NCBI GenBank assembly: GCA_016185545.1 | Contig: JACPNJ010000005.1 | Location: 4,549-68,548, forward strand | Length of the DNA: 64,000 bases | Direction: 5' to 3' | DNA from: Candidatus Yanofskybacteria bacterium | Lineage (GTDB): Bacteria; Patescibacteriota; Minisyncoccia; 2-02-FULL-40-12; IGHO2-01-FULL-4-A | In this document: positions 14,418 to 60,175 of the stretch, one piece after another | Position numbering within the stretch: position 1 is the stretch's first letter | How the letters are laid out: each line of letters starts with the position of its first letter | Made by a program: the position numbers and the translations under genes | The notes under the pieces: generated by a model | What the model was told of the DNA's origin: nothing | Databases searched by the model: none | What the model saw: the letters and a program-made list of their open reading frames with translations, nothing else

Positions 14418-15419
14418 CTACTGCGTGGTCAACCCGGAGTCTTTTTCTATTGCCAGTTGTGGTAAATTTAGTTTTAGCATTCGCTCGTTGTAATCCTTAA
14501 TTATTCGCATCTCTATTGAATGCGGATGAAATTCCAGCTGTTCATCAGTAAAAATCACACGCCCGCCAGTCTGATGACTCACGGGGTTGTGCGCGATGCG
14601 CCGCGATTGATAATGGCCAAACCATTTTTCCAAAACTCTAGCAATGCCGAAGTTATCAAGTAACCATTCAGTCAACTTCACCAAGAATTGAGAAGTTGAG
14701 CTTCTCAAACGAAGCTCAACTTCTTTATTTTCAATATCCCACTCGCAAACATAATCAAGCACCCAACCATTGGCTTTCTTGAAGTCATCTATTAATTCAC
14801 TATCACTGACAAAAATTGGCACGAGATTGGCATAGGTTTGGGCATTATAAATACTTTTGTGGGGAATACTCAGCGATTTATCTGTTATGTAATGGTTGAG
14901 GCAGATTTTATTAGGCGCAATCTTGTCATTGCCACGGCGACGCACGCGCAGGAGTGATAATAAGCCGGTTATGAAAAAGCGTGTCAGCCAGATTCGGCCA
15001 TGTTTAATAATGACTAAAACGTCCAGGTCGCTTAGCTCATCCATATTTCTCATGGCTAATGACCCTGAAGCAAAAACCACTTTTACATATGGTACTAAGT
15101 GTAGCCACCAAACGGCACGCTTGGTAATCTGCCATTTTCGTTGAGCGATTTTTTCACGCTTTATTCGCAATGGCACCAGATATTCCCGGTCAAATAGAAA
15201 ATAGTAACCCTCGCGTAAGCCAATGACTCCCTCCAAAATTAATTGGTCAAGTTCTCGAGAGACAGTGGACAGTGGACAGTAGACAGTGGACAGTAGGCTA
15301 ATGCCTAGATGTTGAAAATTTATCAAGTAATTAAAAACTTCTTCCATTTTCAACGGGAAATCAAAAACATCGTAATAGGTAAGGGTTGCCAGGATATTTT
15401 TTTTAAATTCGGACACCAT
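14418..15419 (-). CDS. nucleotidyltransferase-domain protein (hypothetical)
   Basis: GSLAMRNMDELSDLDVLV Pol-beta-type NTase motif; contains two in-frame repeat insertions. Confidence 0.5.
   Translation of the reverse strand: MVSEFKKNILATLTYYDVFDFPLKMEEVFNYLINFQHLGISLLSTVYCPLSTVSRELDQLILEGVIGLREGYYFLFDREYLVPLRIKREKIAQRKWQITKRAVWWLHLVPYVKVVFASGSLAMRNMDELSDLDVLVIIKHGRIWLTRFFITGLLSLLRVRRRGNDKIAPNKICLNHYITDKSLSIPHKSIYNAQTYANLVPIFVSDSELIDDFKKANGWVLDYVCEWDIENKEVELRLRSSTSQFLVKLTEWLLDNFGIARVLEKWFGHYQSRRIAHNPVSHQTGGRVIFTDEQLEFHPHSIEMRIIKDYNERMLKLNLPQLAIEKDSGLTTQ
14691..14724. repeat. In-frame palindromic element agaagttgagcttctcaaacgaagctcaacttct
   Basis: Near-perfect 14-bp arms; same family as the elements in murC and trpS; encodes EVELRLRSSTS. 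Confidence 0.8.
15261..15295. repeat. Heptamer tandem array (gacagtg/gacagta)x5 inside the NTase coding sequence
   Basis: Five head-to-tail 7-mers encoding STVYCPLSTV. Confidence 0.9.
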
Positions 15420-24965: not shown

Positions 24966-26393
24966 ATGAAAATTAATCCCAAAATCGTGCCCAAAACACC
25001 GGGTGTTTATTTTTTCCGTGATAAACATGGGCAAATTTTGTATATCGGCAAAGCGGTTAACTTAAAAAATCGCTTGGCCAGCTATTTTAAATCTCAACTT
25101 GGCGGTCGGACCGCTAAGTTGATGGAAAAAGCCATAAGAGTTAATTGGCAAAAGACTGATTCCGAAATAGAAGCCCTGATTTTAGAATCACAACTTATTA
25201 AAAAATATCGTCCGCCGTTCAACGTAATGCTGCGTGATGATAAACAGTATTTTTTTGTTGGATTCACGAAAGATGTGTTTCCACGCATCTTCTTGACTCA
25301 TCAACCGTTTGATTGTCGACGCTTAAAAAATTCAAAATCTAAATTTCAAAATTCAAATAATCTAAAACCTGATTTCGTTGGTCCATTCACTGATGGAAAT
25401 GCGCTAAGGATAACCTTGCGACTTCTGCGCCGCATATTTCCCTATTGCACTTGCAAGCAAAAGCATAATAATTATTGTTTGAATTATCATATTGGGAAAT
25501 GTTTGGGGTTTTGCTGTCTGAAAGATCAGAATCTAGAATCTAGAAAGCAGAATCTAGAATCATATAAGAAAAATGCCAGGGCGATAAAAGATATATTGAC
25601 AGGCAAGCGAAGCAGTTTGATAAAAAGATTTAAAAAAGAAATGCTGGAACTTGGCAAAAAACATGATTTTGAAAAAGCGATTGAATTACGCGATAAAATT
25701 ACGAAACTGAAAAAAGTTTTTGAGAATGCCCGCATCATTCTAGATTCCAAAAACAGGTCTACAGACAAAGATGCTTTAAAAAACTTAGCCAAAATTATCG
25801 GCACAAAATATATCCCAAAGCGAATAGAGGGTTATGATATTTCTAATATCCAAGGCGAATTTGCTACTGGTGCAATGGTCGTTTTTGTTAACGGCCGGCC
25901 TGATAAAAGCCAATACCGTAGGTTTAAAATTCGAAATTCGAATATCAAAATTCGAAACAAATCCAAAATTCAAAATTCAAAATCACAAAAGGTTTCGGAT
26001 TTCAGATTTCATGCTTCGGATTTCCGCTCTGTCGGAGATACGGCAATGTTGCGTGAAATATTAACTCGTCGGTTTAATCATCCGGAATGGCCACGGCCGG
26101 ATTTAATAATCGTAGACGGCGGTAGGGCACAACTAAATGTTGCAGCTAAAATAATCTATGGACATCGCAAGACCATAGGTCTTGCGATGACGGAAAATCT
26201 GATTCCGATTGTTGCTTTGACCAAAAACGATAAACACCGAGGAAGCCACATTTATGTTGGCGCTAAAAAAGCGGCTGTACCGTTGAAACAGTTACCATCG
26301 GCGGTTAGAAATCTGATTCTTCAAGTTGATTCAGAGACCCACAGGTTCGCGATTAGTTATTACAAAAAATTGCACAGAAAATTGGGCAAATAA
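24966..26393 (+). CDS. uvrC: excinuclease ABC subunit C, short form lacking the C-terminal (HhH)2
   Basis: GIY-YIG (GVYFFRDKHGQILYIGKAVNLKNR), Cys cluster, UVR domain, RIEGYDISNIQG/IIVDGGRAQL endonuclease domain; ends at 475 aa. Confidence 0.85.
   Translation: MKINPKIVPKTPGVYFFRDKHGQILYIGKAVNLKNRLASYFKSQLGGRTAKLMEKAIRVNWQKTDSEIEALILESQLIKKYRPPFNVMLRDDKQYFFVGFTKDVFPRIFLTHQPFDCRRLKNSKSKFQNSNNLKPDFVGPFTDGNALRITLRLLRRIFPYCTCKQKHNNYCLNYHIGKCLGFCCLKDQNLESRKQNLESYKKNARAIKDILTGKRSSLIKRFKKEMLELGKKHDFEKAIELRDKITKLKKVFENARIILDSKNRSTDKDALKNLAKIIGTKYIPKRIEGYDISNIQGEFATGAMVVFVNGRPDKSQYRRFKIRNSNIKIRNKSKIQNSKSQKVSDFRFHASDFRSVGDTAMLREILTRRFNHPEWPRPDLIIVDGGRAQLNVAAKIIYGHRKTIGLAMTENLIPIVALTKNDKHRGSHIYVGAKKAAVPLKQLPSAVRNLILQVDSETHRFAISYYKKLHRKLGK
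25528..25562. repeat. Heptamer array (agaatct-like x5) inside uvrC
   Basis: agaatct agaatct agaaagc agaatct agaatca; encodes QNLESRKQNLES. Confidence 0.8.
25919..26035. repeat. MITE-like aattcga/ttcggatt element inserted in frame in uvrC
   Basis: Same family as 11921-12045; encodes RNSNIKIRNKSKIQNSKSQKVSDFRFHASDFRS, which is absent from E. coli UvrC at this position. Confidence 0.5.
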
Positions 26394-27662: not shown

Positions 27663-29396
27663 TTGCCCACGAAACAGCAATTACGGTATCTGCCGAAAGT
27701 GCTGTCTAAAAAAGAACGGGATTTGATTGTTTTTTTATTTTTTATTACTATCGGTGCTTTAATAGCCATGCCCGTCGCAGGTTATTATCACTTTACCAAA
27801 CCGGCGCCTGATTTTGGCGGGAGCTTAATTGAAGGCCTAGTGGGTACACCACAGCGCATCAATCCCCTGCTTGTCCAAAATAATGATGCGGAAAAAGATT
27901 TAACAGGCTTAGTTTATAGCGGCTTATTACGATATAACGGTCAAGGTAAAATTGAAAACGGTCTTGCCGAATCTTACGAAATATCAGAAGATGGTCTGAT
28001 TTATATTTTTAAACTGCGAAATAATCTTTTGTGGCATGACAGACAGCCACTCACTGCCGATGATGTAATTTTTAGCGTTATTACCGCTCAGAATTCCGAT
28101 TACGGCAGTACGCAAAGGATTGTTTGGCAGGGAGTTGAAGTAAGTAAGGCTGACGACCGAACAATAATATTTAAACTAAAAAACAAATATGCGCAGTTTT
28201 TAAGTAATGCTACGATGGGGATAATACCCAAACATATATGGGAAAAAATAAAACCGTCTAGTTTTGACCTTTCGGATTTCAATATAAAGCCGGTTGGTTC
28301 CGGACCATACAAGTTTTCCAAGGTCAGACGCGATACTGCCGGAAACATAAAATCTTTTGAATTAGCGGCGTTTGAAAAATATTATGCCGGCAAGCCCTAT
28401 ATCTCTAAAATTATATTCAAATTCTATCAGTCTGAAAATGATATGATAACCGCATATAACAACAATGAAATTGAGGGTTTGGGATTCATTTCGCCGCAAA
28501 ATTTAAATTCTTTCAGGTTCCTCGGTCAATTAAAAATTTTAAAATTACGATTGCCGCGATATTTCGCCGTATTTTTTAACCAGAACCGCAGCAAACAACT
28601 TTCCGATAAGAATGTACGGCTTGCCATAAATTATGCCACCAATAAAAACGGCCTTGTGGACAAAATATTAAACGGCTATGGCACAGCAGTTGATTCCCCA
28701 ATGTTATTCGGAATTATAAATCCGTCCGGCCAAATTGCTAAACAAGAGTTTGGCATTGAGTTAGCAAATAAAACTTTGGAAGATGCTAACTGGTCATATC
28801 CGGCAAGCTCTTCGGATAATCATAGAATCCGTGAAAAGGTTCTGCCGCCGCCAAAAAATAAAAAAAATCAGCCCGGCGAACCGCTTAAACTGGAAATTAA
28901 ACTCACAACTTCCGATTGGCCGGAACTTATAGCCGTCGGTAACGAAATTAAAAGACAGTGGGAAACAGTAGGTGTGGCGGTAAATTTAGAGGTTTTGCCT
29001 TTGCCGGAATTACAGCGTGTAATTAAAGAAAGGAATTATGACGCATTGCTTTTTGGAGAAGTACTTGCTCTTGATCCAGACCCATTTAGTTTTTGGCATT
29101 CATCGCAGAAACGTGATCCCGGTCTTAATTTGGCATTGTACGACAATAAGGACGCTGATAAGCTGTTAGAAGATGCTCGCCAAACACTTGTTTATTCGGC
29201 ACGACTGGCTAAATATGACGAATTTCAAAAAATTGTAGCCAACGAAATTCCCGCGGTATTTCTTTATAGTCCCGATTATTTATACGCCCAGCCGGTAAAA
29301 ATTAAAGGTAATAATAATAAATTGATTTCAATGCCTTCTGGCCGTTTTGATACTGTAAACAAATGGTATATAGAGACAAAAAGAGTTACGAGGTAG
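27663..29396 (+). CDS. ABC transporter substrate-binding protein, family 5 (peptide/nickel-type), membrane-anchored
   Basis: N-terminal TM; length and pattern fit SBP_bac_5. Confidence 0.7.
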   Translation: MPTKQQLRYLPKVLSKKERDLIVFLFFITIGALIAMPVAGYYHFTKPAPDFGGSLIEGLVGTPQRINPLLVQNNDAEKDLTGLVYSGLLRYNGQGKIENGLAESYEISEDGLIYIFKLRNNLLWHDRQPLTADDVIFSVITAQNSDYGSTQRIVWQGVEVSKADDRTIIFKLKNKYAQFLSNATMGIIPKHIWEKIKPSSFDLSDFNIKPVGSGPYKFSKVRRDTAGNIKSFELAAFEKYYAGKPYISKIIFKFYQSENDMITAYNNNEIEGLGFISPQNLNSFRFLGQLKILKLRLPRYFAVFFNQNRSKQLSDKNVRLAINYATNKNGLVDKILNGYGTAVDSPMLFGIINPSGQIAKQEFGIELANKTLEDANWSYPASSSDNHRIREKVLPPPKNKKNQPGEPLKLEIKLTTSDWPELIAVGNEIKRQWETVGVAVNLEVLPLPELQRVIKERNYDALLFGEVLALDPDPFSFWHSSQKRDPGLNLALYDNKDADKLLEDARQTLVYSARLAKYDEFQKIVANEIPAVFLYSPDYLYAQPVKIKGNNNKLISMPSGRFDTVNKWYIETKRVTR

Positions 29397-29429
29397 TAAT
29401 TGTTATTCAGTAACTGAAAACTAAAACTA

Positions 29430-29458
29430 TTGACTCCAACCGCTAGTTTTGCTATAAT
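29430..29458 (+). promoter_or_regulatory. consensus sigma70 promoter (TTGACT-17-TATAAT) upstream of tRNA-Leu
   Basis: Exact consensus hexamers with 17-bp spacing. Confidence 0.55.
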
Positions 29459-29547
29459 GGAATTTCATAGTAGTGATGCATCTCTTATCGGGGACAGCGA
29501 CGTGTCTTACTGTCTAACTCTTGTGTTTTTATTACGCGCATACCCCT

Positions 29548-29631
29548 GCTCGGGTGGTGAAATTGGCAGACACGTTAGCTTCAGGAGCTAATGGGAGCAA
29601 TCCCGTGGGAGTTCAAATCTCCCCCCGAGCA
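29548..29631 (+). tRNA. tRNA-Leu (anticodon CAG), type II with long variable arm
   Basis: Acceptor GCTCGGG/CCCGAGC, anticodon arm TTAGC-ttCAGga-GCTAA, variable-arm hairpin GGGAgcaaTCCC, T-arm GGGAG-ttcaaat-CTCCC; CCA not encoded. Confidence 0.85.
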
Positions 29632-29980
29632 CAATTGAACGAAGTGAAATTGGGAGTGGGGAGCAACACGCCTGCGCGTGTTGCGTGGAGATGAGAACGC
29701 CGGAGCGATGTTTGACGAGCAATCGGTGAGTCAAACCGCGAGGAGGTGGCTAGACTAAATTAGCGGAAGCTAATTTAAGTCAAAGCCAAATCTCCCCCCG
29801 AGCACAATTGAACGAAGTGAAATTGGGAGTGGGGAGCAACACGCCTGCGCGTGTTGCGTGGAGATGAGAACGCCGGAGCGATGTTTGACGAGCAATCGGC
29901 GAGTCAAACCGCGAGGAGGTGGCTAGACTAAATTAGCGGAAGCTAATTTAAGTCAAAGCCAAATCTCCCCCCGAGCACAA
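29615..29980. repeat. Tandem 173-bp direct repeats (2 full copies plus a 20-bp partial) beginning inside the tRNA-Leu 3' end
   Basis: Units at 29615-29787 and 29788-29960 differ by 1 nt; the partial copy at 29961-29980 abuts the ATG of the downstream ORF. Confidence 0.85.
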
Positions 29981-29981
29981 A

Positions 29982-30482
29982 ATGAATAGTAAAAAAAAGC
30001 TTAATGTCAAAATTATTTGGAACGAATCATACCTAAAATCTATTAAAAATAGTGTTGGTTCCAACATATTTAGAAATTTTTACGCTAATGTCGATGGTAA
30101 AAAGATGGATATCAGAAAAGACGGTCAGCTATCCTGCTCTGCGTTTGTTTCTTCTATTCTTTATCTTCATAAATTAATCTATGATATCCATGCAACAGTT
30201 GAGGGTTTAGTTAAGGATATGGAATTGTTCGGATGGAAAAAGATCGACAAACCGAGACCTGGCGCAGTTCTTTTGTGGGAACCTAAACTGCCAAAAAATC
30301 ACAATGATAAAATGTACTTGCGTCACGATCACATTGGTTTTTATGTCGATAACGACAAGGCAATAAGCAATAGGTATGAAAAACGGCAACCAGTTTTGCA
30401 TCACTGGACATTCGGTGTTAGAAACGGCCGGCCGATGCGCAAGGTAGAACAAATATTTTGGAACACAAAATTAAATAAATGA
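29982..30482 (+). CDS. hypothetical protein (possible Cys/His hydrolase)
   Basis: DGQLSCSAFVSSIL and RHDHIGFYV suggest a papain-like Cys/His pair; no RBS; weak call. Confidence 0.35.
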   Translation: MNSKKKLNVKIIWNESYLKSIKNSVGSNIFRNFYANVDGKKMDIRKDGQLSCSAFVSSILYLHKLIYDIHATVEGLVKDMELFGWKKIDKPRPGAVLLWEPKLPKNHNDKMYLRHDHIGFYVDNDKAISNRYEKRQPVLHHWTFGVRNGRPMRKVEQIFWNTKLNK

Positions 30483-32374
30483 TAACTGAAGAAAATAAGG
30501 TGCAATTAACGTCAGCTAAAACTCCAGCTGACAAACAATCAAATACACAACGGCTGGAATCTCAACAAATGAGGCCCAGACGCAGCCGCGCGCCACGTTA
30601 TAAAGATCGGCGTGATTTGCCGCGTTCGCGGCGGCTTGCGCCCATTGAACGTCCCCAGCGTCAAGAAAGTACCGGTGCGTTAGATGAAACTATTAAAATT
30701 ATTCCTCTTGGAGGTCTCGGCGAGGTCGGACGCAATATGTGCGTCCTGGAATATAAAAACGACATTATGATAATTGACGTCGGCTTTGGTTTTCCGGAAG
30801 AAGATATGCCCGGTATTGATTACACTTTGCCCAATATCGCCTATCTGGATGGCAAGCAAGACAGGATACGGGGCATAGTCTTAACCCACGGACACATGGA
30901 CCATATTGGCGGAATTCCCTATCTGATTAATCGACTTGGAAATCCGACCATTTACGCCATGAATCTCACCCGCGGCTTAGCCATTAAGCGTCATCAGGAG
31001 TTTCCACATCTGCCGGAACTGGACATTAATCTCGTACACACTGGTGAAATAATTCATCTTGGTGCATTTGAAATTGAATTTTTCCATGTTAATCATAATA
31101 TTCCAGATGACACTGCACTCATTATTACTACGCCAGCCGGCCGGATCGTGCATACGGCTGACTTCAAATTTGATCCTGAACCGCTTAATGAGAAACCAGC
31201 AGATTTAAACTTCATCAAGAGCATCGGTGATCGCGGAGTATCATTACTGATGTCAGACTCTACTGGTGCTGAGAAAGACGGCAAATCAATATCGGAAAGC
31301 GTAATTCAGGAAAATTTGGAGAAAATTTTTGAAGAATCAAGCGGCGGTGGCATGATACTCGCGGCAACCTTTTCATCTATCATCAATCGCATCCAACAAT
31401 TAATAACCTTGTCAGAAAAATACGGCCGTAAAGTAGTATTTGACGGTTTCAGTCTCAAGAGCAACGTGGAAATCGCTAAGGAATTCAACCAGATAAGCAT
31501 TAAAAAAGAAACACAGATACCGATAACTGAAATAGATCGATACCCGCGTTCCAAAATTACTCTTATAGGCACCGGCGCTCAAGGTGAGGACAGGGCAGTT
31601 TTGATGCGCATTGCTTCCGGCGAACATCGCCACGTCCGGCTTCAAAAAAAAGATGCGATTATTTTCTCGTCCTCGGTAATTCCCGGAAATGAGCGAACAG
31701 TTCAACGGCTTAAAGATCTGCTTTATCGTATGGGGGCGAGAGTTTATGATTATAACATGATGGACATCCATGCCAGCGGTCACGCCTATAGAGACGACCT
31801 CAAACAAATGATGCGGCTGATACGGCCAAAGGCGCTAATGCCCATACATGGCCAATATTCCATGATGGTCAACCATGGCTATCTTGGTGGGCAAGAGGGC
31901 ATAAAAGAAGAGAATATTATAATCGCCGATAATGGTTCTATAATTCACATATCGGACCCAAAATTTACCGACCAGAAAGCTCCGATTAATTGGTGGTTTG
32001 ATAAAAAAACTGTCCCTTCGGACAGTGTTATGGTAGATGGCCTCGGCATCGGAGATATCGGCAATGTGGTTTTGCGTGATAGGCAGGTATTGGCCGAGGA
32101 TGGTATGTTTGTGATCGTGGCTCTGATTGATTCCAAAACCGGCCGCGTGCGCGGCAGTCCCGATATCATTTCACGCGGTTTTGTATATCTCAAAGAAAAC
32201 AAAGAATTGCTGATGCAAGTCCGCAAAAAGGTTAGGTTTGTCATAGAGCGCAAAACCACGCGCCCCATAAACTGGGTGGATTTGAAGGATTTGCTACGCG
32301 ACGAAATCGGGTTGTTTCTGTTCCAAAAAACAGAACGCAGACCCATGGTTTTGCCTGTAGTAATTGAAATTTAA
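30479..32374 (+). CDS. rnj: ribonuclease J (metallo-beta-lactamase/beta-CASP)
   Basis: HGHMDHIGG motif and beta-CASP region; basic N-terminal extension. Confidence 0.9.
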   Translation: MITEENKVQLTSAKTPADKQSNTQRLESQQMRPRRSRAPRYKDRRDLPRSRRLAPIERPQRQESTGALDETIKIIPLGGLGEVGRNMCVLEYKNDIMIIDVGFGFPEEDMPGIDYTLPNIAYLDGKQDRIRGIVLTHGHMDHIGGIPYLINRLGNPTIYAMNLTRGLAIKRHQEFPHLPELDINLVHTGEIIHLGAFEIEFFHVNHNIPDDTALIITTPAGRIVHTADFKFDPEPLNEKPADLNFIKSIGDRGVSLLMSDSTGAEKDGKSISESVIQENLEKIFEESSGGGMILAATFSSIINRIQQLITLSEKYGRKVVFDGFSLKSNVEIAKEFNQISIKKETQIPITEIDRYPRSKITLIGTGAQGEDRAVLMRIASGEHRHVRLQKKDAIIFSSSVIPGNERTVQRLKDLLYRMGARVYDYNMMDIHASGHAYRDDLKQMMRLIRPKALMPIHGQYSMMVNHGYLGGQEGIKEENIIIADNGSIIHISDPKFTDQKAPINWWFDKKTVPSDSVMVDGLGIGDIGNVVLRDRQVLAEDGMFVIVALIDSKTGRVRGSPDIISRGFVYLKENKELLMQVRKKVRFVIERKTTRPINWVDLKDLLRDEIGLFLFQKTERRPMVLPVVIEI

Positions 32375-37906: not shown

Positions 37907-38494
37907 TTGAAAATATCCGGGGCTATTATGAACTTTGATAACTTATCTAGTGAGGAATTAAAAAAATTACTCACCATGGGTCGAACATCCGGTAAAAGAA
38001 TGGCTTTTGAATTTTGGCTCAAGCACATAGAACTAATCGCTCCCAGGGAAACTGGCATAGGCAAAGACCAGCAGCATTACACGGCAAGATTCTTAACACG
38101 GTTTTCTCTGGTTTCAACCACACATTCAATGTTCCACTTTCCTACTTTCATGAGTTTGGCGCAAATTTATGACGAATTCGTGCAGGATATTGAAAACCAG
38201 TATTCACCGGAACCCATGGAAATAGCCGGTTACCAAACTTTACTGCTTGGCGGGTTTTATCTGAAAGCCGCAAGTAAACATTACAACATGGAAGACATAC
38301 GAAAAATGGGCGAATTATTTTTCACCCGCGGAGCAATCGGCAAAAGAAAATCCGTAATCAAAAAAATGGCTCATAATTTTAGCCGATGGCAAAATACGCT
38401 TTGTTATCTTGAATGGTATTTAAGAAATGAAAGATTAGTCATTCAAAAAGCAGAAAAACCCGACGAGCCCCTCATCAAAATCATCCCCCGCTAG
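37907..38494 (+). CDS. hypothetical protein adjacent to the DGR
   Basis: ORF only; its stop overlaps the RT stop by 4 bp (convergent). Confidence 0.35.
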   Translation: MKISGAIMNFDNLSSEELKKLLTMGRTSGKRMAFEFWLKHIELIAPRETGIGKDQQHYTARFLTRFSLVSTTHSMFHFPTFMSLAQIYDEFVQDIENQYSPEPMEIAGYQTLLLGGFYLKAASKHYNMEDIRKMGELFFTRGAIGKRKSVIKKMAHNFSRWQNTLCYLEWYLRNERLVIQKAEKPDEPLIKIIPR

Positions 38495-39501
38495 GGGGAT
38501 TTATATTTTAAAATTTCGGCTTTTAGTTCGTTGGAATTTCCGTGGCTCAAAAGGCCTAGATACGATTCTATTGCCGCAATGTCAGGATTTGATTTAAGTT
38601 TTTTTAACATTCTTCTCTTTGTTGTTGTTCTCAATATTCTGTGGTCTGGAAAATTCACCCACCCCAGAAAATCAACACCCGAATTAATGGTTTTTATGAA
38701 AATTTTACCGGGATGTAATTCTAGTTTAAGATTTTCGGATAAAAAAATCTGAATAGGGTTGATTATACCTTTAAGCCAGGCTTTGTAGGGTGAAATTATT
38801 ACAAAGTCGTCTGAATATCTGACATAGTATTTAGCCTTGAGTTTGTGCTTAACAAACTGGTCAAACTTGTTCATATAGATATTTACGAAAAGCTGTGATG
38901 TTAAGTTACCAAGCGGCAAGCCAACGCCTATTTTCTTGGACGAGAAACTTTTAATGATTTGGTTAAGAAGCCACAAAATATCCTTGTCCGGTATGTTCTC
39001 AACCAAAATTTTTTTCAGTACTTCATGGTCAATATTTTTAAAGAATTTCTTGATATCACACTTTAATATCCAACAAGTGCGAGTATTGTTTTTATTGGCT
39101 TTGTGGGCAAAACTCCTGAAACGGTTTATTGCTTTATGAGTTCCTTTGCCGACTCTGCACGAGAATGAATCGGGAATAAACACTCGGTCAAGGAACGGAC
39201 AAAGTTGCCTACAGACGGCATGGTGAATCAAACGGTCCCTTACTGGCGATTTGTGTATTTGCCTTGGTTTGGGGTCATTGATACGAAAAGATTGATATTT
39301 GCCGTGCTTATAAGTTTTGCCCATCAATTCATGGTGAAGTTCGATAATATTGTCCATCAAATTCATACTGAATTTTTGGACATCTTTCTTTTTGCGCTTT
39401 CCTTTCAAAAATTCTTGCCAAGAATGAAGCAGATTGTCTATACTTACAACATCGTAAAAACAAACACAAAAACCACCTTTATGCCCCCCCCCCAACAACA
39501 A
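38491..39501 (-). CDS. diversity-generating retroelement reverse transcriptase
   Basis: N-terminal IDNLLHSWQEFLKGKRKKKDV, SFSCRVGKGTHKAINR, DGR-specific GLPLGNLTSQLFVNIYMN, YVRYSDDFVI (YxDD). The start is ambiguous: TTG in the given frame, or an ATG if the G-tract is 9 long. Confidence 0.85.
   Translation of the reverse strand: MLLGGGHKGGFCVCFYDVVSIDNLLHSWQEFLKGKRKKKDVQKFSMNLMDNIIELHHELMGKTYKHGKYQSFRINDPKPRQIHKSPVRDRLIHHAVCRQLCPFLDRVFIPDSFSCRVGKGTHKAINRFRSFAHKANKNNTRTCWILKCDIKKFFKNIDHEVLKKILVENIPDKDILWLLNQIIKSFSSKKIGVGLPLGNLTSQLFVNIYMNKFDQFVKHKLKAKYYVRYSDDFVIISPYKAWLKGIINPIQIFLSENLKLELHPGKIFIKTINSGVDFLGWVNFPDHRILRTTTKRRMLKKLKSNPDIAAIESYLGLLSHGNSNELKAEILKYKSP
39484..39493. repeat. C10 (+ strand) / G10 homopolymer at the overlapping 5' ends of RT and avd
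   Basis: Read directly from the sequence. A 9-nt tract would give avd an ATG start at 39481 and RT an ATG start at 39517. Confidence 0.9.
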
Positions 39502-39502
39502 T

Positions 39503-39850
39503 TTGTCGATTATTCATGGTTTTATTGAATTATACAAAGTCTGGCAAAAAATATTTCCCCACTTTCCGACCACCTCCAGACACACGCTCGGATACAGAAT
39601 AGATAATCTTCTCGTGGAAATAGCTGAATTATTGTTTCTGGCGCAATTTGCAACCGGCAATCTTAAGTTATCTCTGGTTGAAAAAACATCACAGAAACTA
39701 GATACGATAAAATTCCTGTTAAGGTTGGCTTGGGAAGTTGAATCTATGGAAGAAAAGAAATATATAATTTTGTCTGAATATCTGCAAAACATTGGGAAAC
39801 AACTTGGCGGTTGGATAAAATATATAAGAAAAGAAAACTCTCCGCGTTGA
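39503..39850 (+). CDS. avd: DGR accessory variability determinant (Avd), four-helix-bundle type
   Basis: C-terminal GKQLGGWIKYIRKEN resembles bAvd ..GRILGSWIARVNRK; IKFLLRLAWEVE resembles bAvd LRFWLRFLA; 115 aa. It lies on the strand opposite to RT, TR and the target gene. Confidence 0.7.
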   Translation: MSIIHGFIELYKVWQKIFPHFPTTSRHTLGYRIDNLLVEIAELLFLAQFATGNLKLSLVEKTSQKLDTIKFLLRLAWEVESMEEKKYIILSEYLQNIGKQLGGWIKYIRKENSPR

Positions 39851-39866
39851 GCAGAGAGAAACAGAG

Positions 39867-40007
39867 ATAGTTTCGAGGCAGAACGAACACGAAGCGATAG
39901 TCAGAATCAAAGACGTTGTCGGGATTGCCGTAATACGCGTTCAACCAAGGTTCGCCATCGTTACGATTCACATCGAACACGTTCAGGTTGCCGTCGGAGT
40001 CAGTAAT
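39867..40007 (-). repeat. DGR template repeat (TR), template strand minus
   Basis: Aligns to 40261-40401 at an offset of 394 bp. All 16-17 mismatches are T on the + strand, which is A on the TR coding strand; there are no other mismatches in 133 bp. Confidence 0.85.
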
Positions 40008-40197
40008 GTATGGCATACCGTCTATACCACCACCCCTTGAGTTTTCTCAGGGTTGAATCTAATTTGATATCTAAATCATACCCTAGTACACCACACCAAG
40101 TATGTCTGTTTTTTTTTGAGGCCGCTCAAAGCCTTCTAATTTTGACCGTGAGCATGTCGCCGTATCTATAATATAACTTATTTCCGAAATAAAAAAG

Positions 40198-40230
40198 GGT
40201 CAGTCAATGATAAAAATATTGACCGACCCA
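40198..40230 (-). terminator. hairpin plus U-run downstream of the VR/target gene
   Basis: Minus strand: gggtcggtcaat..attgactgaccc followed by ttttttatttcgg. Confidence 0.5.
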
Positions 40231-40260
40231 GAAACCAAGCAACAAGAATCTGAGAGATCC

Positions 40261-40401
40261 TTACTTGCGAGGCAGAACGAACACGAAGCGATAGACAGAA
40301 ACAAAGACGCTGTCGGGACAGCCGCAAAACGCGCCCAACCAAGGTTCGCCATCGAAACGATTCACAACGAACACGCGCAGGCTGCCGTCGGAGTCAGTAA
40401 G
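40261..40401 (-). repeat. DGR variable repeat (VR) at the 3' end of the target gene
   Basis: See the TR entry. The TR-encoded peptide has Asn (AAY) where the VR peptide has S/R/F/G/C/K, and TR Asp/Tyr codons also vary. Confidence 0.85.
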
Positions 40402-40914
40402 TGGCTCCATGGCAACTACGAGACACTCTCCATCGGGCTGATCCTTGTACTGATCGCGCAGTGCCGGACCAACTTCGTTTGGACAGAGTTGACCGCCGAC
40501 CTCAACTATCCTGGCACAGATGTCATCATACCGGGTACTCTTCTTGAAACCGAGTTCAGCAACCGACATGACACACAAATCCACTTCAATCTCTGCCTGC
40601 GAGATGGAGATTTTGTGGAGAATCTGCTGTGCCCAATCACCGATTCGGGTAGTACCTCCACGCTTCAGGGCACTCGCGTAAGCCTTCGGGGTCTTGTGAA
40701 GGCCCAGTCTGATGGTCCCCCAAACCTTCAGCACTGGCAAAAGCCCAAGAAACTTCTGGAAGACATCTCTGACAGGCAAAGTATTTGACTTGATTGCCCG
40801 AGCCAGGTCTGATAGATACCCGCTGTGCAGTGTGTTCATCTCCTCACCGGAGAGCTTCTGCTGATCCAGCAGATTAAGTGTCTGCTGGGCATGACCAAAA
40901 GTTGCATTGCTCAT
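40261..40914 (-). CDS. DGR target protein (217 aa) with C-terminal variable region
   Basis: AGGAGG RBS; GC content higher than its surroundings; C-terminus ..DGEPWLGAFCGCPDSVFVSVYRFVFVLPRK is VR-encoded; no signal peptide. Confidence 0.8.
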   Translation of the reverse strand: MSNATFGHAQQTLNLLDQQKLSGEEMNTLHSGYLSDLARAIKSNTLPVRDVFQKFLGLLPVLKVWGTIRLGLHKTPKAYASALKRGGTTRIGDWAQQILHKISISQAEIEVDLCVMSVAELGFKKSTRYDDICARIVEVGGQLCPNEVGPALRDQYKDQPDGECLVVAMEPLTDSDGSLRVFVVNRFDGEPWLGAFCGCPDSVFVSVYRFVFVLPRK

Positions 40915-51323: not shown

Positions 51324-51324
51324 A

Positions 51325-51395
51325 GGTTATAGGTTATAGGTTATAGGTTATAGCTTTATTGCATCTATAATCTATAAGCTATTACCTATCAGCTA
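51325..51395. repeat. Two heptamer arrays (ggttata x4; ctatNNN x5) between sod and grx
   Basis: Read directly from the sequence. Confidence 0.85.
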
Positions 51396-59100: not shown

Positions 59101-59375
59101 TAAGCACGGTTTTAGAACCTATCTTGGAATATCTCTCGTCCGTCTTATCCTTATGCACTAATTCTTTGTGGGGTATTTCTCTTTTGGGTCTAGTTATTTT
59201 CATGGTTTAAGAGTATCTATTTTCCACGAAAAAGCAAAGACCCCATTAGGGGTCGATTTGCTTAGAAAGGTATTATTATAACAAATCCTTCAATTGCGGT
59301 TACTTGAGTTCCATGCCAGCGCATGCAGGCCCATGTCCTATTCACCCACCTAAATTTTTAAAATTCCAGATAAAG

Positions 59376-59446
59376 CTGCGAGGCCTGGACTCGAACCAGG
59401 ATACTGGGATTCAAAGTCCCATGTCCTACCTTTAGACGACCTCGCA
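59376..59446 (-). tRNA. tRNA-Gln (anticodon UUG)
   Basis: Acceptor UGCGAGG/CCUCGCA with U1:A72 and discriminator G, anticodon arm TGGGA-ctTTGaa-TCCCA, T-arm CCTGG-ttcgagt-CCAGG. Confidence 0.8.
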
Positions 59447-59488
59447 GCTTTATCGACAATTATTTTTTCAAAAACTTAGACGGGTAAT

Positions 59489-60175
59489 CTAGGCAACTCC
59501 GCAATTTTTACAAATACCTTCTATCCAACCGGCTATTTTCCTGTTTAAATCGGCACTTTTTTTGACATTAACCCTTAATAAACCGAAATAATCAATGCCG
59601 GTATTTTTTCTATATTTGGATAATTTATTTTTCTTAAAGTATGTTTTGTTAATTTTTGCTTCCACAATATTTTCCCAGTAATCTATAACGTTTGCAACAT
59701 TATTTTTGGAATTTTCATGAATGTATATTTCATAACCAATTTCTTCTAATTTTATACCTACGGATTCTTTCAACCATTTTAAAAATATCCTAATCATAAG
59801 CGGGTCTGAATTATTGAAAGAAACCTGCTGGCTAACGCTGTGTTTTTTTTCTTTGGTTCCCTCGGCCCAATAAAGGACACTGCCAATTAACCAGAGATCT
59901 TTTTTAGAGATTCGCCCAACATCCGCTATGGCAGATTCCCTGATTATTTTAGTCTTTTCAACCCTGTTTTGGTGTACTTTAATCCAACCTCTCTTCATGG
60001 CATCTAATTTCTTCTGTGTGAGTCTCTGTTTTTGTTCCCTGGAAAGATTAACTGATTTTAGCCATAGCGAAAGCGTTGATTTGGCCACTGGGACTTTTTT
60101 TAAAATTTCTGAATACGAAAAACCTCGCTTTCTCATGCCAATTGCCGCTCCCCTTTCTTTTGGTTTAATTACCAT
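59489..60175 (-). CDS. HTH-domain hypothetical protein next to tRNA-Gln
   Basis: GMRKRGFSYSEILKKVPVAKSTLSLWLK is resolvase/sigma-region-4-like HTH; the C-terminal domain is unassigned. Confidence 0.4.
   Translation of the reverse strand: MVIKPKERGAAIGMRKRGFSYSEILKKVPVAKSTLSLWLKSVNLSREQKQRLTQKKLDAMKRGWIKVHQNRVEKTKIIRESAIADVGRISKKDLWLIGSVLYWAEGTKEKKHSVSQQVSFNNSDPLMIRIFLKWLKESVGIKLEEIGYEIYIHENSKNNVANVIDYWENIVEAKINKTYFKKNKLSKYRKNTGIDYFGLLRVNVKKSADLNRKIAGWIEGICKNCGVA

What the first reader, a model, noticed from the sequence alone, without database searches (positions are those of the whole stretch)
29548..29980. tRNA-Leu(CAG) whose 3' end seeds 2.1 tandem copies of a 173-bp unit that abuts the next gene's ATG
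Each unit begins with the tRNA T-arm and acceptor 3' strand plus discriminator (aaatctccccccgagca). It also contains tRNA-like fragments (gaaattggg D-loop-like; ttagcGGAAgctaa anticodon-stem-like) and a 9-bp-stem palindrome gcaacacgc-ctg-gcgtgttgc. The two full units differ by a single base. Duplication of a tRNA 3' end is the usual footprint of tyrosine-integrase integration (att site), but here the copies are tandem with no cargo between them. This points to a decayed integrative element, a tRNA-derived satellite, or slippage at an att core. The downstream ORF starts 1 nt after the third partial copy and has no RBS.
Basis: seen in the sequence. Interest (0 to 1): 0.6.

Follow-up and report, generated by a model that had tools for sequence, protein, structure and literature searches.

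The report
Structured element copying tRNA tails
The tandem repeat after tRNA-Leu is real and consists of two copies of a small, gene-less, folded element belonging to a large and apparently undescribed family that sits just behind tRNA and tmRNA genes in many uncultured bacteria, carrying both an antisense and a sense copy of the neighbouring tRNA's tail.

Summary
In detail: tRNA-Leu(CAG) at 29548-29632 is followed by 2.1 copies of a 173-bp unit, and the ORF's ATG lies 1 nt after the last partial copy. The window is from a Candidatus Yanofskybacteria MAG.

The unit is not a random att-site remnant. Of these, 71 lie within 120 nt downstream of a tRNA (18 isotypes) or tmRNA gene on the same strand.

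Each copy has four parts:
- two arms antisense to the tRNA's last ~21 nt, split by a near-invariant hairpin (GAGCAA-nnn-GCCUGCGC-nnn-UUGCGU);
- a covarying core rich in G·U pairs;
- usually a direct copy of the tRNA from T-loop position 56 to a variable point beyond its 3' end.

No ORF, integrase or reverse transcriptase is linked, and nothing matches in Rfam 15. Close relatives of the window genome lack the insert.

Best reading: a non-autonomous, tRNA-tail-targeting element with an RNA or single-stranded phase, recently duplicated here by recombination between its flanking repeats. The mechanism is unproven.

The parts
29430..29458 (+). Sigma-70-like promoter (TTGACT-17-TATAAT with extended TG) upstream of the tRNA. 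No terminator-like site was found between it and the ORF.
   Evidence: 11 of 12 consensus matches; it is the only promoter-like site in 29000-30600, and 0 terminators were found there.
29548..29632 (+). tRNA-Leu(CAG), intact; discriminator A at 29631.
   Evidence: ARAGORN; Rfam RF00005, 54.8 bits.
29614..29634 (+). R1: the tRNA's own T-loop (from C56), T-stem 3' strand, acceptor 3' strand, discriminator and 3 trailer nt (CAAATCTCCCCCCGAGCACAA).
   Evidence: family D2. Across the family the duplication starts at tRNA end -19 in most loci.
29633..29651 (+). Spacer hairpin AAUU-GAACGAAGUGA-AAUU. Its loop motif GARCGNAGYGA recurs in the family. It is repeated at 29806-29824.
   Evidence: the same loop motif lies next to tRNA-Ser, -Leu and -Gly in L055, L064, L092 and L096, and is flipped in L133.
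29649..29808 (+). Element copy 1 (E1): degenerate anti-acceptor arm, hairpin A, anti-T arm, core with hairpins B and C, then R2.
   Evidence: Covariance model R1 scores 116.2 bits, E = 9.5e-31. This copy was in the model's seed alignment.
29661..29686 (+). Hairpin A of E1: GAGCAA-CAC-GCCTGCGC-GTG-TTGCGT, the near-invariant signature of the family.
   Evidence: The three middle stem pairs covary across the family; the most variable shows GC 52, AU 27, UA 16, CG 10.
29687..29698 (+). Anti-T arm of E1 (GGAGAUGAGAAC), complementary in 10 of 12 positions to GUUCAAAUCUCC of the tRNA T-loop and T-stem 3' strand.
   Evidence: Read. The family-wide pairing is helix 3 (87.8% of cells paired).
29699..29786 (+).
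   Evidence: helices 4-6 are 89-93% paired, and every pair shows compensatory changes. G·U to A·C ratio of 56:16 in core helices.
29787..29807 (+). R2: exact direct copy of R1.
   Evidence: family D2.
29822..29981 (+). Element copy 2 (E2), identical to E1 except C29900. Hairpin A lies at 29834-29859.
   Evidence: Covariance model R1 scores 117.2 bits, E = 5.1e-31.
29960..29980 (+). R3: third exact copy of the tRNA-tail 21-mer, ending 1 nt before the ATG.
29982..30482 (+). 166-aa ORF (C40/NlpC-P60/CHAP-like by the annotation of its homologues). It is a conserved neighbour of tRNA-Leu(CAG) in Patescibacteria and is not part of the element. RNase J follows at 30479-32374.

Best explanation
The 2 x 173 bp are two tandem copies of a small (~130 nt plus repeat), ORF-less, structured element. 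It belongs to a large family (E) that lives immediately 3' of tRNA and tmRNA genes.

**Anatomy of a typical copy.**
1. About 9 nt antisense to the tRNA's acceptor 3' strand.
2. A near-invariant hairpin.
3. About 12 nt antisense to the T-stem 3' strand plus T-loop.
4. A covarying core.
5. A direct duplicate of the tRNA from T-loop position 56 to a variable point past the tRNA end.

**Proposed way of working.** I read E as a non-autonomous, site-specific selfish element with a functional single-stranded phase, most likely RNA, on the tRNA-sense strand. It targets the universally conserved T-loop and 3' end of tRNA-like genes. It duplicates the target, so the tRNA stays intact. It is mobilised in trans by an enzyme not encoded next to it.

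**History in this window.** The element is old: its acceptor arm has decayed and the ancestral 27-nt spacer is gone. The array is young, with 1 difference in 173 nt. The array most likely arose by unequal recombination or slippage between the 21-nt direct repeats flanking the element.

**Shown versus inferred.**
- Shown: family membership, anatomy, tRNA association, covariation and strand bias, the target duplication, and absence from relatives.
- Inferred: mobility, the RNA phase, the trans-acting enzyme, and the mode of array expansion.
For: **Family and tRNA association.**
- Model R1 found 123 copies in 100 loci. Of these, 71 lie within 120 nt downstream of a same-strand tRNA/tmRNA (18 isotypes plus tmRNA), 5 follow another copy in tandem, and 14 are at contig ends.

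**Arms match the adjacent tRNA.** Mean 18.6 of 20 positions paired, with 22 of 58 loci perfect, against 15.75 when arms are paired with other loci's tRNAs. For tmRNA the arm is the exact complement of the 3' strand, not a copy of the G·U-containing 5' strand.

**Conserved structure.** 93.1% of cells are paired versus 70.7% in shuffles. All 30 pairs show compensatory changes. Slid controls give 30-50%. G·U outnumbers A·C 56:16 in the core helices, which points to the tRNA-sense strand.

**Signs of insertion and mobility.**
- The duplication starts at a fixed point (tRNA end -19, which is C56). It ends 0 to 54 nt beyond the tRNA, including locus-specific trailer and terminator.
- Several copies occur per contig next to different tRNAs (L058/L079, L081, L084, L126, L134).
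- Cores 80-87% identical sit beside different tRNAs, each with matching arms.
- The element is absent at the orthologous site in L032, L033 and L008-L013.
- Tandem arrays also occur in L085, L059, L097, L108 and L053.

**Stand-alone element.** Flanking genes are unrelated housekeeping genes such as IF-2, FtsH and a helicase.

**Not a known RNA family.** Rfam 15 returns only tRNA/tmRNA.
Against: - No mobilising enzyme was identified. phmmer with the window's RT and a P4-type integrase found nothing in 730 kb of E-bearing loci, although that search has low sensitivity.
- No known mechanism writes a split antisense copy of each new target into an element. Arm mismatches to the tRNA show no G·U preference (25 G·U versus 27 A·C). 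That fits recent templating or DNA-level palindrome correction, not RNA-pairing selection.
- The strong covariation of the core could equally mean a host-beneficial RNA that is inherited vertically.
- L032 and L033 may be deletion derivatives rather than empty sites. L033's spacer GGCTAAATCTC resembles the end of the core plus the start of the repeat.
- No excised, circular or empty/occupied allele pair from one population was seen. The only hint is the 1-unit versus 2-unit difference between L001 and the window.
- In the window itself the arms pair less well (16 of 20).
Confidence: 0.5

Rival explanations
1. A host-functional, vertically inherited tRNA-linked RNA. In this reading E is a stable non-coding RNA or a cis-acting 3'-trailer structure whose arms pair with the tRNA's 3' end or with its own downstream copy. 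It could form a closed tRNA-like acceptor/T helix, a processing or termination device, or a tRNA-tail mimic or sponge. The match to the neighbouring tRNA would be kept by selection, gene conversion or quasi-palindrome correction rather than by transposition.
For: - Covariation is very strong and G·U pairs are enriched in the core.
- The hairpin loop and junction sequence is near-invariant across divergent hosts.
- Copies are on the same strand as the tRNA and directly behind it, so co-transcription is plausible. In the window there is one promoter and no terminator.
- In 35 of 61 loci the tRNA tail, a terminator-like spacer and the 5' arm form one continuous ~40-bp hairpin.
- A sub-threshold hit of the permuted-tmRNA model spans the tmRNA tail, spacer and arm (26 bits). 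This shows a tRNA-like permuted topology.
Against: - Occurrence is patchy. Only 71 of 145 tRNA/tmRNA genes in the E-bearing loci carry it. It is absent behind tRNA-Gln in the window and absent from close relatives.
- Truncated and tandem copies exist.
- Duplication of locus-specific trailer and terminator is hard to explain by function.
- Related cores sit on different isotypes.
- The 5' arm pairs over the discriminator, which is unlike an aminoacylatable mimic.
Confidence: 0.3
2. One reading: a remnant of a tyrosine-integrase element. The repeats would be attL and attR, the 152 bp between them would be what is left of the cargo, and the array would come from tandem accretion or slippage at the att core.
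For: - Direct repeats running from the T-loop to just past the tRNA 3' end are the classic footprint of tRNA-targeting integrases (established knowledge; Williams 2002, from memory).
- Tandem arrays sharing att copies are known for cis-mobilisable elements.
- One family member (L036) lies next to a P4-type integrase.
Against: - In L036 the integrase belongs to an island inserted into the tRNA-Ser upstream of the element. L090 shows the same locus with an intact tRNA-Ser and no such junction.
- No integrase was found among the window ORFs scanned, or in 730 kb of related loci.
- The 'cargo' is the same structured module in more than 120 loci, not random debris.
- The repeat length varies and includes host-specific trailer sequence.
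- The antisense arms have no counterpart in att sites.
Confidence: 0.08
3. Assembly artefact or trivial replication slippage: the second unit does not exist in the cell, or the repeat has no biological meaning.
For: - The same-strain short-read contig L001 shows only one unit and begins inside the tRNA.
- The contigs carrying the upstream gene (L002-L005) end about 200 nt past it, near or inside the tRNA.
- A 173-bp repeat is longer than typical reads.
Against: - The two units differ at one base, which a pure assembly duplication would not create.
- Even a single unit is a bona fide family member flanked by the tRNA-tail repeat.
- Tandem pairs occur in five other, unrelated loci.
Confidence: 0.04

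Closest known systems
attL/attR duplications made by tRNA/tmRNA-targeting tyrosine integrases (genomic islands, P4-like elements, cis-mobilisable remnants)
   Same: - A direct repeat starting in the T-loop and running to or past the tRNA 3' end.
- The tRNA is kept intact.
- tRNA and tmRNA genes are both used.
- Tandem arrays are possible.
   Different: - No integrase is present.
- The insert is a conserved ~130-nt structured module, not variable cargo.
- The element carries a split antisense copy of the target.
- The duplicated stretch is variable in length and includes locus-specific trailer and terminator sequence.
Group I introns in the T-loop of tmRNA and in tRNA genes (including Patescibacteria; PMC11915505, PMC13011429)
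   Same: - A structured RNA element associated with the T-loop of tRNA-like genes.
- An internal sequence complementary to the flanking exon.
- Common in the same phylum.
   Different: - The tRNA upstream is complete, so nothing needs splicing.
- There is no group I core (no Rfam hit).
- At about 130 nt it is too small.
- It is flanked by a duplication rather than interrupting the gene.
MITE/REP-type small palindromic repeats (for example Correia elements; from memory)
   Same: - Small, ORF-less and multi-copy.
- Terminal complementarity gives a long hairpin.
- Tandem copies occur.
   Different: - The 'terminal repeats' are not constant; they copy whichever tRNA is adjacent.
- The site is strictly tRNA/tmRNA 3' ends.
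- The internal part shows RNA-type covariation.
Guide-carrying mobile elements (group II intron EBS/IBS pairing; IS110 bridge RNA; from memory)
   Same: The element contains sequence complementary to its own insertion target. Retargeting would correspond to changed arms.
   Different: - There is no intron, ribozyme core or recombinase gene.
- The arms total 21 nt, split by a hairpin.
- The target is duplicated.
SINE-like elements inserted by target-primed reverse transcription (eukaryotic; from memory)
   Same: - One precise junction, at the element's 3' end.
- A target-site duplication of variable length.
- Non-autonomous and RNA-structured.
- Possible 5'-truncated copies.
   Different: - No such system is known in bacteria.
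- No RT or endonuclease partner was identified.
- There is no A-tail.

Membership tests
Element family E (defined here; covariance model R1) | Signature hairpin GAGCAA-nnn-GCCTGCGC-nnn-TTGCGT with complementary nnn | tested here: met
   Found at window 29661-29686 and 29834-29859 with 0 mismatches; 0 matches expected by chance.
Element family E (defined here; covariance model R1) | Full-length match to the structure and sequence model | tested here: met
   116.2 and 117.2 bits over model positions 1-157. Caveat: copy 1 was one of the 22 seed sequences. L007, L036 and about 100 non-seed loci also match.
Element family E (defined here; covariance model R1) | Lies within 120 nt downstream of a same-strand tRNA/tmRNA, or follows another copy | tested here: met
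   E1 starts 17 nt after tRNA-Leu and E2 follows E1. Across the family, 76 of 123 copies meet this and 14 more are at contig ends.
Element family E (defined here; covariance model R1) | Arms antisense to the adjacent tRNA's last ~21 nt | tested here: inconclusive
   The window scores 16 of 20, which is the control level (15.75 +/- 1.46). The T arm pairs in 10 of 12 positions, while the acceptor arm is degenerate.
Element family E (defined here; covariance model R1) | Direct copy of the tRNA from T-loop C56 onward after the core | tested here: met
   R2 and R3 are exact 21-mers starting at C56.
Integrase-generated att remnant or integrative element | Tyrosine (or serine) integrase in or next to the insert | tested here: not met
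   None among the 24 ORFs scanned between 12.5 and 43.6 kb plus one at 59.5 kb. The remaining window ORFs were not scanned. No P4-type homologue in 730 kb of family loci.
Integrase-generated att remnant or integrative element | Direct repeat of the tRNA 3' segment flanking the insert | tested here: met
Integrase-generated att remnant or integrative element | Insert content unrelated between independent loci, apart from recombination modules | tested here: not met
   The same ~130-nt structured module is present in at least 120 loci.
Group I intron in a tRNA/tmRNA gene | Interrupts the gene, so the mature RNA requires splicing | tested here: not met
   A complete tRNA precedes the element.
Group I intron in a tRNA/tmRNA gene | Group I catalytic core | tested here: not met
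   No RF00028 or other intron match at E <= 10.
MITE / REP-like repeat | Constant terminal inverted repeats and a fixed short target duplication | tested here: not met
   The arms change with the tRNA. The duplication ranges from 12 to more than 70 nt.
Type III toxin-antitoxin (tandem RNA repeats upstream of the toxin) | Downstream ORF is a ToxN/AbiQ/CptN/TenpN-type endoRNase | tested here: not met
   No Pfam or PADLOC hit. Homologues are annotated as C40/CHAP peptidases, and the homologues examined (L006, L008-L013, L032-L034) lack the repeats.
TPRT-type (SINE-like) retroelement | Precise 3' junction with a target duplication of variable length | tested here: met
   The core ends ...GUGAC | C56 in type-1 copies. 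The duplication ends 0 to +54 nt past the tRNA.
TPRT-type (SINE-like) retroelement | Partner reverse transcriptase/endonuclease; an RNA intermediate | not testable with these tools
   Only a DGR-type RT lies in the window (38491-39501). No RT was found near other copies. No transcript data were available.
Any curated RNA family (Rfam 15) | Score at or near a family's gathering threshold | tested here: not met
   Only tRNA/tmRNA matched. The best other hit was tmRNA_permuted at 26 bits against a threshold of 47.

The most novel reading that the evidence does not exclude
E is a new class of bacterial mobile element whose split antisense arms act as a programmable guide for the 3' end of tRNA-like genes. 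It would move through an RNA or single-stranded intermediate. One junction is fixed at T-loop position 55/56. The other lies at the end of the tRNA transcription unit, right after the terminator's U tract. That pattern is what one would expect from target-primed reverse transcription or template switching onto the tRNA precursor. It would amount to a bacterial, tRNA-homing, SINE-like element mobilised in trans.
Probability: 0.2. Interest if true: 0.9.

Novelty: categorically new. Interest (0 to 1): 0.78.

Why it matters
If E is what it appears to be, tRNA and tmRNA genes in many uncultured bacteria carry a previously unrecognised companion. The hosts are mostly Patescibacteria, plus at least one GC-rich, probably betaproteobacterial, genome. 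The companion is a compact folded element that encodes, for each host tRNA, an antisense and a sense copy of that tRNA's tail.

- **If it is mobile,** it is a new kind of site-specific, possibly guide-directed element that preserves its target. This bears on why tRNA 3' ends are universal landing pads, and on programmable insertion.
- **If it is a host RNA,** it is a widespread, unannotated non-coding RNA class tied to tRNA maturation or termination in genome-reduced bacteria.

Practical consequences:
- It explains contig breaks next to tRNAs in these MAGs.
- It shows that such repeats should not be annotated as prophage att sites.
- The covariance model built here makes the family searchable.

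Tried and rejected
1. **Cyanobacterial origin.** The many 7-nt repeats suggested this. It was rejected: the ORF matches a Candidatus Yanofskybacteria MAG.
2. **Type III toxin-antitoxin** (repeats abutting a ~170-aa ORF). Rejected by Pfam and PADLOC, and because the homologues examined lack the repeats.
3. **5' end of a group II intron.** Many copies are preceded by GUGCG. Rejected: those bases are the antisense of tRNA ends ...CGCAC. No RT ORF follows and no intron model matches.
4. **A housekeeping RNA (tmRNA, RNase P).** Rejected: Rfam finds a normal tmRNA upstream of the element in L156, and nothing on the element itself.
5. **Integrase linkage via L036.** Judged incidental after comparison with L090.
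6. **Part of a larger element with cargo.** Rejected: downstream ORFs are unrelated housekeeping genes.
7. **Copy made from mature tRNA.** Rejected: the copies carry gene-encoded trailer sequence rather than CCA (CAA in the window).
8. **Arms as a copy of the tRNA's own 5' strand.** Rejected: non-palindromic T-loops and the tmRNA G·U position show true complementarity to the 3' strand.
9. **BLAST of the unit.** No match against phage records. The L090 locus against plasmid records matched only its tRNA part.
10. **Literature.** Seven full-text searches found no description of such an element (one search failed on syntax).
11. **Search for RT or integrase near other copies.** phmmer found none.
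Full report
**1.
- ARAGORN and Rfam place an intact tRNA-Leu(CAG) at 29548-29632.
- TRF finds a 173-bp period, 2.1 copies, 99% identity at 29614-29980.
- The repeat finder shows two full units (29614-29786 and 29787-29959). It also shows three exact copies of CAAATCTCCCCCCGAGCACAA at 29614, 29787 and 29960.
- That 21-mer is the tRNA from T-loop C56 through the discriminator plus three trailer bases.
- The units differ only at T29727 versus C29900.
- The ATG of a 166-aa ORF is at 29982.
- The unit is about 54% GC in a ~35-40% GC background. It folds far better than shuffles, with z = -5.0.
- A strong promoter-like site (29430-29458) precedes the tRNA, and no terminator-like site lies before the ORF. 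Here the tRNA, the array and the ORF are therefore probably one transcription unit (inference).

**2. Source organism and neighbours.**
- The ORF is identical to a protein of a Candidatus Yanofskybacteria MAG. Its homologues are annotated as C40/CHAP-type peptidases.
- Flanking genes are ordinary: UvrC, SecG, an SBP_bac_5 protein, RNase J, a tRNA-binding protein and TrpRS.
- Six species-level relatives have tRNA-Leu(CAG) 20-55 nt upstream of this gene with no insert (L008-L013).
- Two closer relatives (77-78% protein identity) have a 27-nt spacer. In L032 the tRNA tail is identical to the window's.
- One relative (85% identity, L007) has a homologous but shorter unit. Its main hairpin carries compensatory changes (GCAATATGC/GCATATTGC). 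Its terminal repeat copies a different tRNA-like tail, that of a degenerate tRNA-Leu(CAG)-like sequence just upstream.
- A same-strain short-read contig has one unit only.

**3. The unit belongs to a very large family.**
- The hairpin with its flanks (GAGCAA-nnn-GCCTGCGC-nnn-TTGCGT) was used as an exact pattern. It returned 1 locus from the viral collection.
- In nearly all of these loci the two nnn triplets are complementary, and many different triplets occur.
- Sequence downstream of the hairpin is also conserved.
- A covariance model built from 22 copies finds exactly two copies in the window. It finds none behind the window's other tRNA, tRNA-Gln.
- The model finds no copies in the 24 genome loci anchored on the ORF.
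- It finds 123 copies in 100 metagenome loci. These include second copies that lack the exact pattern, and tandem pairs in L085, L059, L097, L108 and L053.
- Rfam 15 matches nothing but tRNA/tmRNA on the window region, on 19 loci at gathering thresholds, or on two representative copies at E <= 10.
- Seven full-text literature searches found no description. The nearest items are group I introns in the tmRNA T-loop and in Patescibacteria tRNAs.

**4. Anatomy.**
- Of the 123 copies, 71 lie within 120 nt downstream of a same-strand tRNA (18 isotypes) or tmRNA gene. Five follow another copy and 14 are at contig ends.
- The order of parts is: tRNA, spacer, arm 1, hairpin A, arm 2, core, then usually a direct copy of the tRNA tail.
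- Arm 1 (~9 nt) is the reverse complement of the acceptor 3' strand plus discriminator.
- Arm 2 (~12 nt) is the reverse complement of the T-stem 3' strand and T-loop. It follows idiosyncratic T-loops such as UCCGAUU (L079) or UUCAACU (L058).
- The arms pair with the locus's own tRNA tail at a mean of 18.6 of 20 positions, and 22 of 58 loci are perfect. Arms paired with other loci's tRNAs give 15.75.
- For tmRNA the arm is complementary to the 3' strand, not a copy of the G·U-bearing 5' strand.
- In 35 of 61 loci the spacer is a terminator-like hairpin whose flanks pair end to end. The tRNA tail, spacer and arm 1 therefore form one long hairpin.
- Five loci, including the window, instead have an A/U hairpin with the loop GARCGNAGYGA. 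One locus has that loop flipped.

**5. Evidence for a single-stranded, probably RNA, phase.**
- On the model-guided alignment, 93.1% of pair cells are canonical versus 70.7% in shuffles. All 30 pairs show double-sided changes. Slid controls give 30-50%. The alignment leans toward the model's structure.
- An independent MAFFT/RNAalifold run on the 22 copies later used as the model's seed already gave 19 of 30 pairs with compensatory changes.
- G·U exceeds A·C 56:16 in the core helices and 30:18 in the T-arm helix. This points to the tRNA-sense strand.
- By contrast, arm-to-tRNA mismatches are symmetric, with 25 G·U and 27 A·C. That suggests the arms are recent exact copies, or are corrected at the DNA level, rather than maintained by RNA-pairing selection (inference).

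**6. Evidence for insertion.**
- The direct copy starts at a fixed position, tRNA end -19 (C56), in most loci. In type-1 copies it follows a conserved core end ...GUGAC.
- Its other end varies from inside the acceptor to 54 nt beyond the tRNA. In several loci it includes the locus-specific trailer and the whole terminator (L044/L098, L045, L055, L083, L104).
- It therefore derives from the gene, not from mature tRNA, and it behaves like a target duplication with one precise and one variable end.
- Several contigs carry copies behind different tRNAs.
- Cores that are 80-87% identical lie behind different tRNAs (Ser/Gly, Lys/Gly, Ser/Val), each with arms matching its neighbour.
- Truncated copies exist.
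- Neighbouring genes are unrelated housekeeping genes.
- No RT or P4-type integrase homologue occurs in 730 kb of these loci.
- The one integrase-adjacent copy (L036) is explained by an island inserted into the tRNA-Ser upstream of a pre-existing element, as the intact L090 locus shows.

**7. Interpretation for the window.**
- The two copies are nearly identical to each other. Their acceptor arm, however, is degenerate (16 of 20 overall), and the ancestral 27-nt spacer seen in relatives is missing.
- The simplest history is an old insertion followed by a recent duplication. That duplication would arise by unequal recombination or slippage between the 21-nt repeats (inference).
- The array now forms a 346-nt structured stretch between the tRNA and an ORF that lacks a Shine-Dalgarno sequence in all relatives too.

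**8. What it is, and what remains open.**
- The best-supported statement is that this is a member of an unclassified family of tRNA/tmRNA-tail-associated structured elements.
- I favour a non-autonomous, target-preserving mobile element (confidence about 0.5) over a vertically inherited host RNA (about 0.3).
An assembly artefact would affect only copy number.
- How the split antisense arms come to match each tRNA is unexplained. Candidate explanations are guide-directed targeting, templated synthesis, or quasi-palindrome correction. None was testable here.
- The fixed junction at T-loop 55/56 and the other junction at the end of the tRNA transcription unit would fit a reverse-transcription or template-switch route. 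That is speculation.

Noticed in passing
window 38491-40914: A complete-looking diversity-generating retroelement. It has an RT ORF at 38491-39501 (-) (RVT_1, 1.8e-22) and a bAvd-like ORF at 39503-39850 (+). A 139-nt repeat at 39868-40006 matches 40262-40400 at 88% identity. These are the candidate template repeat and the variable repeat at the 3' end of ORF 40261-40914 (-). No link to the tRNA-tail element was found.
   Followed up: partly
window, e.g. 1834-1863, 15261-15294, 25926-25983, 51324-51353: Many short arrays of 7-nt tandem repeats are scattered through the window, in both genes and spacers. Some lie inside the UvrC-like ORF at 24966-26393.
   Followed up: no
L033 735-818: In this relative the tRNA-Leu(CAG) 5' acceptor strand (GCCCAGG) mismatches its 3' strand (CCCGAGC) at two positions. 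It pairs perfectly with the L007-type tail (CCTGGGC). This looks like a swapped 3' end or a chimeric assembly.
   Followed up: no
L007 29-116: A degenerate second tRNA-Leu(CAG)-like sequence lies between the true tRNA and the element. It runs from the D arm to the 3' end, lacks a matching 5' acceptor strand and is not called by ARAGORN. The element's repeat copies this pseudo-tRNA's tail.
   Followed up: partly
L036 2350-3387 and L090 3093-3326: A P4-type integrase (Arm-DNA-bind_3, Phage_int_M, Phage_integrase) sits next to a partial tRNA-Ser 3' end in a GC-rich, probably betaproteobacterial, prophage-flagged contig. The element lies just beyond it. L090 has the same locus with an intact tRNA-Ser.
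   Followed up: partly
L133 (spacer between tRNA-Ser and the element): The spacer-hairpin loop is the reverse complement (UCACUGCAUUC) of the motif GARCGNAGYGA seen in other loci, as if the loop had flipped within the long inverted repeat.
   Followed up: no
L150 7150-7226: The permuted-tmRNA model (RF04321) gives a sub-threshold hit (26 bits against a gathering score of 47). The hit spans the tmRNA 3' end, the terminator spacer and the element's 5' arm. The tail-spacer-arm arrangement therefore resembles the junction of a permuted tmRNA gene.
   Followed up: no
window 59375-60175: A 228-aa ORF with a weak homeodomain-like HTH match (59489-60175, -) lies directly upstream of tRNA-Gln (59375-59446, -). 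This tRNA has no element behind it.
   Followed up: no
L002-L005 and L001: Short-read (Logan) contigs of the same or nearly the same strain end about 200 nt past the upstream SBP gene, near or inside the tRNA-Leu. The contig carrying the ORF starts inside the tRNA. The locus therefore breaks assemblies.
   Followed up: partly
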